A model generated the notes under the pieces. The model was not told the DNA's origin. It saw only the letters and a list, made by a program, of their open reading frames with translations, and ran no database searches. Of a stretch of 26,770 nt of DNA, positions 25,420-26,770 are shown piece after piece. A program made the translations under genes and the position numbers. Position 1 is the first letter of the stretch. Every line of letters starts with the position of its first letter. Source of the DNA: Promethearchaeota archaeon (GTDB taxonomy: Archaea; Asgardarchaeota; Lokiarchaeia; Sigyniarchaeales; SOKP01); assembly GCA_004524535.1 (NCBI GenBank), contig SDNY01000046.1:1-26770 (forward strand), written 5' to 3'.

Positions 25420-26770
25420 ATGATTGAAAATACTTTGGCTGTTATTGGGCTAAGTTGGGGAGATAAAATATCTGAAAACAGATTTTACCCTAGATGAAGG
25501 CAAAGGTAAGTTTGTCGATTTCTTAGCCCAAAAAGCAGATATAGTCGTTCGTTATGCTGGTGGAAGCAATGCGGGTCATTAAAATAAATCTCTTCGATTT
25601 TCTAGGCTAAACGGTTGTTGCCAACGGCATTAAGTATAAGTTTAAATTGATTCCATCTGGTGCTCCATTGGAGAAAGAGGTTGTTATAGCAAATGGATGC
25701 GTAGTAGATCCAGTTGTCCTGCTTGAAGAAATAGAAAACTTAAAAAACTTGAATAAGCAAGTCAATTTAAAACTAAGTAGCACAGCACACATTATTTTCC
25801 CATTCCAACGTGTTTTAGACGGATTAGAGGAAGAAGCGAAGGGAAAACATGCTGCTGGAACAACAAAAAGAGGTATAGGCCCCACATACTCTGATAAGGC
25901 CGCTCGTTGGGGAATTAGAGTCTATGATTTAATTAATCCTGATTTATTAAGACTAAAATTAATGAAATTATTTGAGCTAAAGAAGGCTCTTATTAAATCA
26001 TTCGATCCCGAATGGGATATGGATTTTGATATTCTTTTTGAAGAATATAAGACATATGGTGATATATTAAAACCTTACGTAATTGACACGGCATATTATT
26101 TGAATAAAGCGATAGATTCCGGAAAAAAAGTAGTTTTCGAAGGTGCCCAAGGTACTTTATTGGGGATAGATCACGGTATGTATCCCTATGGAACGAGCTC
26201 AAATGCAAACGCACTTGGAATATCTGCGGGCACGGGAGTTCCTTCTAAAAAAATTGGTAAAATTATTGGAATTGTCAAAGCTTACACATCAAGAGTTGGG
26301 GGAGGCTTATTTCCAACTGAGTTAACAAATACAATAGCAGAAAAAATCCGAGAACAAGGAAAAGAGTACGGTACAGTAACAGGTAGACCGAGAAGAGTAG
26401 GATGGTTGGATCTCTTTAATATCAAATATTCGATTATGATAAATGGTGTGGATAGTATTATTATCACACTTTTAGATGCTTTAGAAGGCATTAATCCACT
26501 AAAAATTTGTACGGCATATGAATTAGAGGGAAAGATTCTTGAGAGTTGGCCCATCCAATCAGAGATAATAGAAAAATGTATACCCATATATAAAACTTTT
26601 GACGGGTGGGAACAAAAAACTAGTGAAGAATGGTCTGAAATAGCAAAACAAGGTTATGATGCATTGCCTTTAACAATGAAAACATACATTCAATTTATAA
26701 AAGATGAACTTCAAACAGAAATCGCAATGATCTCAATTGGACCAGACAGGAATGACACAATAGTATTGGA
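25420..26770 (+). CDS. purA: Adenylosuccinate synthetase with two introns; exons 25420-25462, 25494-25579, 25611 to beyond the window end
   Basis: Joined product [60 protein letters not shown]...[14 protein letters not shown]...FEGAQG.LL.IDHG.YPY.TSS...[13 protein letters not shown]...[16 protein letters not shown]; exon 3 is open to the window end. Confidence 0.93.
25463..25493 (+). other. purA intron 1, 31 nt, BHB-like
   Basis: GGGG-AG^A-UAAAAUAUCUG-AAAA-CAGAUUUUA-CCCU-AG^A; removal gives TGG GGA GAT GAA GGC (WGDEG). Confidence 0.88.
25580..25610 (+). other. purA intron 2, 31 nt, BHB-like
   Basis: AGCAAUGCG-GGUC-AU^U-AAAAUAAAUC-UCUUC-GAUUUUCUA-GGCU-AA^A-CGGUUGUU; removal gives GGT CAT ACG GTT (GHTV). 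Confidence 0.85.

What the first reader, a model, noticed from the sequence alone, without database searches (positions are those of the whole stretch)
25463..25610. The two purA introns resemble each other; all three introns share length and sit in the most conserved 5' motifs
Seen: intron 1 ATAAAATA-TCT..GATTTT..CTAG and intron 2 TAAAATAAATCT..GATTTT.CTAG..CTAA share TAAAATA, ATCT and GATTTT in the same order, while the helix-forming 3' four bases differ to match each exon. The Zn-ribbon intron has unrelated sequence but the same 31-nt length. All lie within the first ~45 codons. Inference: introns may spread by reverse splicing or local copying, persist where imprecise loss would kill the protein, and have a constrained length. 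AT-richness weakens the similarity argument.
Basis: inference. Interest (0 to 1): 0.7.

Follow-up and report, generated by a model that had tools for sequence, protein, structure and literature searches.

The report
Thirty-base introns inside archaeal protein genes
Two genes in this stretch of an Asgard (Loki-type) archaeal genome are interrupted by three 31-base hairpin inserts that look like the introns normally cut out of transfer RNA, and the same genome holds at least two dozen more in other protein genes, which is far more than is known for any archaeon.

Summary
Each is 31 nt, and removing them restores intact proteins. They fit the archaeal bulge-helix-bulge (BHB) layout. Four exon bases pair with four intron bases, and each cut lies 2 nt beyond that helix. 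Intron 1 occurs at the same site in 16 distinct relatives' purA sequences, with covarying hairpins.

The resemblance between the two purA introns is not above chance. Shuffles reach it in 4-27% of trials, and it ranks 11th of 276 intron pairs.

The length claim holds and generalises. I found 24 such introns in this genome, 26-34 nt long, 21 of them 29-31 nt.

The "conserved motif" claim holds for purA. The "5' end" claim is not general. An alternative cause is that the exon side of the helix is G+C-rich in a 30% G+C genome, which points to Gly/Ala/Pro-rich motifs.

No RNA data were available, so splicing is inferred. I found no report of abundant mRNA introns in Asgard archaea in my searches.

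The parts
25420..25462 (+). purA exon 1 (ATG at 25420; ends with G of the Asp codon of GDEGKGK)
   Evidence: exon 1 plus exon 2 restore GD|EGKGK, as in intronless relatives
25463..25493 (+). purA intron 1, 31 nt, BHB register: 1 nt, hairpin, CCCT, AG
   Evidence: same site in 16 distinct relatives' sequences
25457..25460 (+). exon half (GGGG) of the central 4-bp helix of intron 1; pairs with 25488-25491 (CCCT)
   Evidence: 98% of cells paired in 14 sequences
25494..25579 (+). purA exon 2 (AT + 28 codons, EGKGK...NAGH)
   Evidence: Adenylsucc_synt profile 10-37
25580..25610 (+). purA intron 2, 31 nt; relaxed BHB: GGTC (25574-25577) pairs with GGCT (25605-25608); the inner hairpin is not adjacent to the bulge
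   Evidence: absent from all other purA loci read
25611..26770 (+). purA exon 3 (runs off the window end)
   Evidence: Adenylsucc_synt profile 38-416 from residue 1
25447..25454 (+). GGGCTAAG in exon 1, fully complementary to CTTAGCCC at 25522-25529 in exon 2 (possible distal exon-exon helix)
   Evidence: such pairing in 10 of 18 intron-bearing loci against 4 of 68 intronless loci
17286..17303 (-). Zn-ribbon gene exon 1 (six codons, M-A-R-C-P-E)
17255..17285 (-). Zn-ribbon intron, 31 nt; CCAG (exon) pairs with CTGG; 9-bp inner stem
   Evidence: absent from 21 of 21 relatives read
17042..17254 (-). Zn-ribbon gene exon 2 (second Cys of the first knuckle, CKSC knuckle, basic tail, stop)
   Evidence: no Pfam family

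Best explanation
The three inserts are archaeal bulge-helix-bulge (BHB) introns inside messenger RNAs. After transcription, four G+C-rich bases near the end of the upstream exon pair with four bases near the 3' end of the intron. An intron-internal hairpin stacks on one side, and in many cases an exon-exon helix stacks on the other. The two strands are cut 2 nt beyond that 4-bp helix, in A-rich 3-nt bulges, by the splicing endonuclease. This genome has two EndA paralogues, the make-up of the broad-specificity heterotetramer. RtcB then joins the exons. They belong to a population of at least 24 such mini-introns in this genome's protein genes, with a narrow length range of 26-34 nt and a mode of 30. 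The narrow length most likely reflects what a free-standing BHB needs when no tRNA body helps: 1 + stem-loop of about 22-25 + 4 + 2 nt. The likeness of the two purA introns is what two A+T-rich hairpins of that build show by chance. Their place in conserved motifs is real for purA, and is at least partly explained by the need for a G+C-rich exon tetramer in a 30% G+C genome. What is shown: the inserts, the restored frames, the geometry, the covariation, and the presence of the enzymes. What is inferred: the cutting and joining itself.
For: Frames and homology restored. In the alleles whose boundaries cannot slide (GGGGAG|...|ACGAAGG) the geometric rule places the cut exactly where the invariant Asp codon is restored. 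Covariation in 14 intron-1 sequences: 80% of cells paired, against 33-52% when partners are slid. Central helix 98% paired. All 5 pairs of the inner stem show changes on both sides. Score 0.207 against 0.104 in shuffles (0 of 500 reach it). There is one compensatory synonymous change between exon 1 and exon 2. Two EndA paralogues and one RtcB are present. The same build recurs in 24 introns, and Pfam profiles run on without a break across the junction: AAA_3 88|89, Rpb1_1 73|74, CdhD 135|138, and others. Seven introns were found by homology alone: against genome G008 or against paralogues. The host genes include ones normally indispensable: ribosomal protein L11, RNA polymerase A', gyrase B, argininosuccinate synthase. 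The DNA is confirmed by a second assembly of the probable source run, and intron 2 is also held in a ~97% relative from another study. Similarity tests at chance level.
Against: No RNA evidence was available: no RNA run holds the locus. Intron 2 is a poor BHB. Its 4-bp helix has two G-U pairs, its hairpin lies 3 nt from where it should, and the region folds no better than shuffles (z +0.63, 147 of 200 shuffles fold at least as well). Introns 1 and Zn are only modestly better than shuffles (z -1.8 and -1.6). G000's intron 1 has no adjacent exon-exon helix. My structural scan showed no excess over decoy geometries. I later saw that those decoys re-detect real introns in shifted register, so no false-discovery rate is available and the list rests on case-by-case homology. 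Twenty of the 24 introns were first picked by a scan that demanded the geometry, and I judged candidates by eye only for lengths 24-40, plus a top-70 list for other lengths.
Confidence: 0.8

Rival explanations
1. Intron 2 of purA is a copy of intron 1 (or both descend from one recently active element) that moved 115 nt within the gene by reverse splicing or local duplication. The likeness is therefore descent.
For: The shared 7-mer and two further words occur in the same order. A lenient alignment is reached by only 197 of 5000 shuffles. Both introns are absent from the sister genome G008 and the four other same-genus purA loci read, so both may be young. G000's intron-1 hairpin is unlike that of every other intron-1 orthologue.
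Against: A standard score is reached by 16-27% of dinucleotide shuffles. The pair ranks 11-16th among real intron pairs. Intron 2 is more like the rpL11, gyrB and acetyl-CoA synthetase introns than like intron 1. Neither intron has another copy in the genome. The Zn-ribbon intron is equally lineage-specific and unrelated in sequence.
Confidence: 0.1
2. The inserts are not removed from the RNA. Ribosomes hop over them (programmed translational bypassing, as in phage T4 gene 60).
For: In G000 intron 1 the codon GAT stands both before the insert and at its end. A stop codon directly follows the last exon codon at intron 2. Hairpins are part of known bypass signals (recalled).
Against: A matching take-off and landing codon is missing in the intron-1 orthologues (their inserts end in TAT, AAT or similar), at the Zn-ribbon intron (GAA against GTT) and at most of the 24 (contexts). 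What is conserved is pairing between exon and intron, with cuts placed by helix geometry in all three codon phases.
Confidence: 0.03
3. The inserts are damage or artefact: assembly errors, or recent insertions that have turned purA and the Zn-ribbon gene into pseudogenes.
For: Intron 2 and the Zn-ribbon intron are seen in this lineage only. Intron 2 folds poorly.
Against: A second assembly of the run holds the stretch 21576-26770 letter for letter, and a relative from another study also carries intron 2. The exons carry no other defect over 429 codons. The same kind of insert interrupts L11, RNA polymerase A', gyrase B and some 20 other genes in a genome rated 99% complete, each time restoring the frame exactly. 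Intron 1 and the rpL11 intron are kept across genera or species with compensating changes.
Confidence: 0.04

Closest known systems
cbf5 pre-mRNA intron of Crenarchaeota (Watanabe et al. 2002; Yokobori et al. 2009, PMC2738675: search listing and abstract seen; described in PMC10485636, passages read)
   Same: A BHB-type intron inside a protein-coding gene. The motif is relaxed. [quoted passage not shown] Distribution among relatives is patchy, with gains and losses.
   Different: That is one gene in one group of Crenarchaeota. Here there are at least 24 introns in one Asgard genome, up to two per gene, all 26-34 nt, in genes such as purA, rpl11, rpoA', gyrB and argG. No RNA proof exists here, whereas cbf5 splicing was shown experimentally.
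HVO_1309 mRNA of Haloferax volcanii (PMC10485636, passages read; PMC7714728, abstract seen)
   Same: An mRNA cut by the archaeal splicing endonuclease and found joined in RNA-seq.
   Different: A single case in a euryarchaeon with the alpha-2 enzyme. I did not compare sequence or structure.
[quoted passage not shown]
   Same: Same lineage, same presumed enzyme, repeated lineage-specific gains, introns sitting at BHB-competent sites, and no copying route found. In this genome the tRNA model finds only 15 genes, as expected if most are interrupted.
   Different: The preprint treats tRNA genes only. In the passages found by my term search, 'protein-coding' occurs once (as neighbouring genes) and 'mRNA' never. 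It reports a median of 22-23 nt, against a mode of 30 nt here.
Programmed translational bypass, phage T4 gene 60 (recalled, no paper read)
   Same: A short untranslated gap with a hairpin inside a reading frame.
   Different: There are no matched take-off and landing codons. The conserved feature is exon-intron pairing with fixed cut geometry.

Membership tests
Archaeal BHB (splicing-endonuclease) introns | Two 3-nt bulges on opposite strands separated by a 4-bp helix | tested here: met
   22 of 24 introns have 4 of 4 pairs in the central helix and 2 have 3 of 4. Note that 20 were selected for this. Of the 7 found by homology alone, 5 have 4 of 4 and 2 have 3 of 4. For purA intron 1 the helix is 98% paired in 14 sequences.
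Archaeal BHB (splicing-endonuclease) introns | Cuts at symmetric positions in the bulges, so that the helix alone predicts the exon junction | tested here: met
   A cut 2 nt after each strand of the helix restores the invariant Asp codon in all intron-1 alleles, including those whose boundaries cannot slide. It also gives the CPEC reading seen in 21 of 21 relatives. That the cut lies after the second bulge base in canonical BHBs is recalled, not read.
Archaeal BHB (splicing-endonuclease) introns | Flanking helices on both sides (strict hBHBh') | tested here: inconclusive
   An inner stem adjacent to the bulge is present in 23 of 24 introns (3-10 bp) and absent in purA intron 2. An adjacent exon-exon helix is seen in about half of the intron-1 alleles (64% of cells paired) and not in G000. 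G000 has a distal 8-bp complement instead.
Archaeal BHB (splicing-endonuclease) introns | Host encodes EndA and an RtcB-type ligase | tested here: met
   Two PF01974 matches (108 and 71 bits, open frames 203 and 202 aa) and one PF01139 match (561 bits). Whether the alpha subunit carries the L1 loop was not examined.
Archaeal BHB (splicing-endonuclease) introns | Joined exons and excised (often circular) intron seen in RNA | not testable with these tools
   No RNA run holds the locus. Only DNA contigs could be laid.
Translational bypass elements | Identical take-off and landing codons flanking the gap | tested here: not met
   Met by chance in G000 intron 1 only. Not met in the intron-1 orthologues, the Zn-ribbon intron or intron 2.
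Group I / group II self-splicing introns | Ribozyme core of hundreds of nucleotides | tested here: not met
   The inserts are 26-34 nt.
Miniature transposable elements | Many near-identical copies, target-site duplication | tested here: not met
   Each of the 24 introns has only itself as a match longer than 20 nt in the genome.

The most novel reading that the evidence does not exclude
Loki-type Asgard archaea (Promethearchaeota) run a routine mRNA-splicing system. Dozens of about 30-nt BHB mini-introns sit in ordinary and essential protein genes. They are gained and lost on the time-scale of species (three of the four introns that G000 has and its sister lacks are 31 nt). They are placed wherever a G+C-rich exon tetramer followed by A-rich bases lets the broad-specificity endonuclease act. 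Gene callers that ignore them would then mis-annotate many conserved genes in these genomes as split or truncated. The closest prokaryotic relatives of eukaryotes would be the first prokaryotes known with many endonuclease-spliced (BHB) introns in protein-coding genes.
Probability: 0.6. Interest if true: 0.9.

Novelty: new variant of a known kind. Interest (0 to 1): 0.75.

Why it matters
A 2023 review counts two archaeal genes whose mRNA is spliced by the tRNA endonuclease and expects more (PMC10485636, passages read). One genome with at least 24 would change the picture from curiosity to system. The examples include ribosomal protein L11, RNA polymerase A', gyrase B and two in purA, and orthologous introns occur in many other Promethearchaeota assemblies. 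That system would be in the lineage used to reason about the origin of eukaryotes.

It also matters practically. Genes broken by 29-34 nt inserts are called as fragments or pseudogenes, which distorts metabolic reconstructions of Asgard genomes.

The narrow length, the A-rich bulges and the G+C-rich exon tetramer together give a testable recognition rule for the (alpha-beta)2 enzyme on substrates that have no tRNA body.

Tried and rejected
Structure-plus-reading-frame scans with "decoy" geometries as a null (timed out, 30, 33, 37). True and decoy counts were alike (for example 130 against 137-150). I first read this as "no population". I then saw that a real intron reappears in every decoy at a shifted cut or at length +/-3, so these decoys are no null. 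I give no false-discovery rate.

Candidates I dropped as false: C47 and C129 (the "intron" is itself coding), C147+12945 and C46 (gene starts), and C107-11253 and C61-9770 (gene ends). Also dropped were events with 44-68 or 210-255 extra bases in HdrA/MvhD-like genes. I read those by eye as gene borders or domain insertions and did not check them further.

Left unresolved: C115+5053, C180 (two copies), C41, C70, C119, C148-2859, C134 (27 or 30 nt), C115+18054, C181 and C148-14257. The N-terminus of the phosphomutase gene on C107 also does not join cleanly.

No RNA holder was listed for the locus, so expression and splicing could not be looked at. Contigs of runs X2 and X3 cover the region only in diverged pieces and were not used as evidence.

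The careful tree did not finish, so the quick IQ-TREE tree is what I cite. The tblastn search of G000 frames against the 400-kb G008 sample found no intron specific to G008; its only hits were antisense frames of a Kelch-like repeat.

Literature searches that found no report of mRNA BHB introns in Asgard or Loki archaea. The library lacks most subscription journals. Supplements were closed and may hold relevant tables, for example those of the tRNA preprint.

Full report
WHAT IS THERE. The window is contig C126 of a 3.66-Mb, 30% G+C genome rated 99% complete. Its purA relatives carry titles of Promethearchaeota (Loki-type Asgard) assemblies.

purA starts at 25420. Its frame is broken twice. 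Deleting 31 nt after the Asp codon of GDEGKGK, and 31 nt after the His codon of NAGH, gives an open 429-residue protein. Pfam puts exon 2 on positions 10-37 and exon 3 on positions 38-416 of Adenylsucc_synt, with no gap.

It lies between the Glu and the second Cys of a CPEC zinc knuckle. All 21 relatives whose locus I could read have ARCPEC[AG]G uninterrupted.

THE BUILD. In all three, four exon bases ending 2 nt before the 5' cut pair with four intron bases ending 2 nt before the 3' cut: GGGG:CCCT, GGTC:GGCT, CCAG:CTGG. The bulged bases are A-rich. Between them lies a hairpin. This is the bulge-helix-bulge layout of archaeal tRNA and rRNA introns; my mapping of it onto tRNA numbering is recalled.

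The genome has two EndA paralogues and one RtcB. Asgard archaea are reported to have the (alpha-beta)2 enzyme with the loop that widens substrate range (PMC5829648, passages read).

EVIDENCE FROM RELATIVES.
- Intron 1. I could read the N-terminus in 86 purA loci. Of these, 18 (16 distinct sequences) carry a 30-, 31- or 32-nt insert at exactly the intron-1 site. All 18 have TGGGGAG before it.
- In eight of the distinct sequences the second exon begins with AC rather than AT. The boundary then cannot slide, and it falls exactly where the helix rule puts it.
- In an alignment of 14 of the distinct sequences the hairpins differ but stay paired. Cells paired are 80% (33-52% when partners are slid). 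The central helix is 98% paired. All five pairs of the inner stem have changes on both sides. The covariation score is 0.207 against 0.104 in shuffles (0 of 500 reach it).
- Seven of these 14 also have an adjacent exon-exon helix, with one compensatory pair of synonymous changes (CTT/GAA to CTC/GAG).
- On a quick tree of 78 distinct proteins the intron needs at least 9 gains or losses (5 forced by well-supported branches). G000 is sister to the intronless G008.
- Intron 2 is in no other purA locus read. The Zn-ribbon intron is in no other genome read.

THE DNA IS REAL. A Logan contig of the probable source run covers 21576-26770 with no difference and no joint over either intron. A contig from another study covers 25483-25819 with 11 differences and no gap, so a roughly 97% relative also carries intron 2. 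No RNA run holds the locus, so splicing itself is inferred.

THE WIDER POPULATION. A scan for this geometry combined with codon statistics gave candidates whose flanking peptides I recognised. Pfam then showed profiles running on across the junction:
- AAA_3: 1-88 | 89-131 (MoxR).
- RNA_pol_Rpb1_1: 34-73 | 74-153.
- CdhD: 7-135 | 138-227.
- ACS/CODH beta: second exon starts at profile position 25.
- Argininosuccinate synthase: second exon starts at position 12.
- BcrAD_BadFG: position 5.
- MMR_HSR1: position 11 (P-loop split).
- L11_N: position 21.
- ABC_tran and DeoC: the profile match ends at the exon end.

Two searches that did not use structure added more.
- Frames of a 400-kb sample of sister genome G008 against G000 found purA introns 1 and 2 and one 30-nt stop-bearing insert on C181.
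- G000 frames against G000 paralogues found 30-nt stop-bearing inserts in an aldehyde:ferredoxin oxidoreductase (6 paralogues), a P-loop ATPase (5), a WD-like protein (12), a TldD-like protease and an acetyl-CoA synthetase (YWQ|TETGG). It also found a 32-nt split in the aldolase and a 26-nt split on C86.

The 24 introns whose boundaries I could fix are 26 (1), 29 (3), 30 (12), 31 (6), 32 (1) and 34 nt (1). The first bulge base is A in 21 of 24. The first intron base is A in 18. The 3' bulge starts AA in 14.

All three codon phases occur. Two genes besides purA seem to hold two introns: the oxidoreductase gamma subunit, and probably ACS.

The rpL11 intron is shared by five genomes of the genus (30, 30, 30, 28, 28 nt). 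It is missing from 18 other loci; 7 loci could not be read.

I recognised no real case among the candidates of 16-25 or 37-70 nt that I inspected (top 70 only).

The tRNA model finds only 15 genes in this genome. About six of them span 101-105 nt instead of 71-75, which is in line with heavy interruption of Asgard tRNA genes (preprint 10.64898/2026.10.13.758758, abstract).

(1) Likeness of introns 1 and 2: not above chance.
- Score 6 is reached by 1372 and 807 of 5000 dinucleotide shuffles and ranks 16 of 190 pairs.
- A shared 7-mer occurs in 484 of 5000 shuffles and in 11 of 276 real pairs.
- The most favourable scoring gives 197 of 5000 and rank 11 of 276.
- Intron 2 is closer to the rpL11, gyrB and acetyl-CoA synthetase introns than to intron 1.
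- No intron has a second copy in the genome.

(2) Constrained length: supported, with a mode of 30 rather than 31.

(3) Conserved 5' motifs.
- Both purA junctions lie between invariant residues. The six-residue window at junction 1 ranks 3rd of 423 and at junction 2 ranks 88th (78 sequences, 81 of 429 columns invariant).
- Many other introns split P-loops and catalytic motifs. My recognition by eye favours such motifs, so this is not an unbiased count.
- Introns are not confined to 5' ends.

A simpler cause is available. The exon tetramer averages 68% G+C against 32% for coding tetramers. All 7 introns found by homology alone have at least 3 G/C, which 11% of coding tetramers have. In an A+T-rich genome such tetramers sit mostly in Gly, Ala, Pro and Arg codons, which are the material of nucleotide-binding loops.

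WEAK POINTS.
- Intron 2 is the least canonical. It has two G-U pairs in the helix and a hairpin displaced by 3 nt, and it folds no better than shuffles (z +0.63). It does have exon-exon pairing (GCAAU with GUUGC) in the minimum-energy fold.
- G000's intron 1 lacks the adjacent exon helix. Instead, 25447-25454 is perfectly complementary to 25522-25529. Such a distal complement is present in 10 of 18 intron-bearing loci and 4 of 68 intronless loci. These loci are related, so this is a lead, not a test.
- My decoy controls were invalid (see Tried and rejected), so the size of the whole population is unknown.

VERDICT. The three inserts are BHB-type mRNA introns, members of a sizeable and previously unreported set in this Asgard genome as far as my searches reach. 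The shared length is a real property of the class. The sequence likeness of the two purA introns is not evidence of copying. The placement in conserved motifs is real for purA but may follow from base composition.

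Noticed in passing
window 25447-25454 and 25522-25529: Exon 1 GGGCTAAG is perfectly complementary to exon 2 CTTAGCCC, 28 nt past the 3' splice site. The same distal pairing (with G-U changes) is found in 10 of 18 intron-1-bearing purA loci and in 4 of 68 intronless ones. The other intron-bearing alleles have an adjacent exon-exon helix instead.
   Followed up: partly
G000 contig C32, about 3640-3815 (locus L104): The acetyl-CoA synthase (CdhC/ACS) gene has one 30-nt intron. 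Its second exon stops after 48 codons at profile position 64 of 245, so a second interruption probably follows.
   Followed up: partly
G000 contig C107, about 14646-14735 (locus L111): The phosphoglucomutase-like gene's long frame starts at profile position 18 of PGM_PMM_I. The candidate 29-nt intron does not restore the expected N-terminal motif, so the true exon structure there is unresolved.
   Followed up: partly
whole genome G000: The Rfam tRNA model finds only 15 tRNA genes, and ARAGORN finds 22 (several with doubtful introns), in a genome rated 99% complete. Most tRNA genes must be too interrupted to be recognised.
   Followed up: no
locus L024 (G019 purA): After GHTVVVNG the frame runs into unrelated sequence, and the match to the query resumes only at residue 75. 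This may be a larger insertion, a deletion or an assembly break in that genome's purA.
   Followed up: no
G000 contig C180, 12616-12647 and 12889-12920: Two near-identical 32-nt BHB-like candidates lie 273 nt apart in a repeated coding unit of unknown family.
   Followed up: no
G000 contig C65, about 1100-7200, and G008 contigs C7, C9: Long arrays of about 219-nt repeats encode a Kelch-like protein of more than 2000 residues. Their antisense frames produce many false 'insert with stop' signals in tblastn comparisons.
   Followed up: no
G000 against its sister G008: In a 400-kb sample, G000 has three introns that G008 lacks (31, 31, 30 nt), and the Zn-ribbon intron outside that comparison is a fourth (31 nt). 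G008 showed none that G000 lacks. Recent gains (or losses in G008) seem one-sided.
   Followed up: partly
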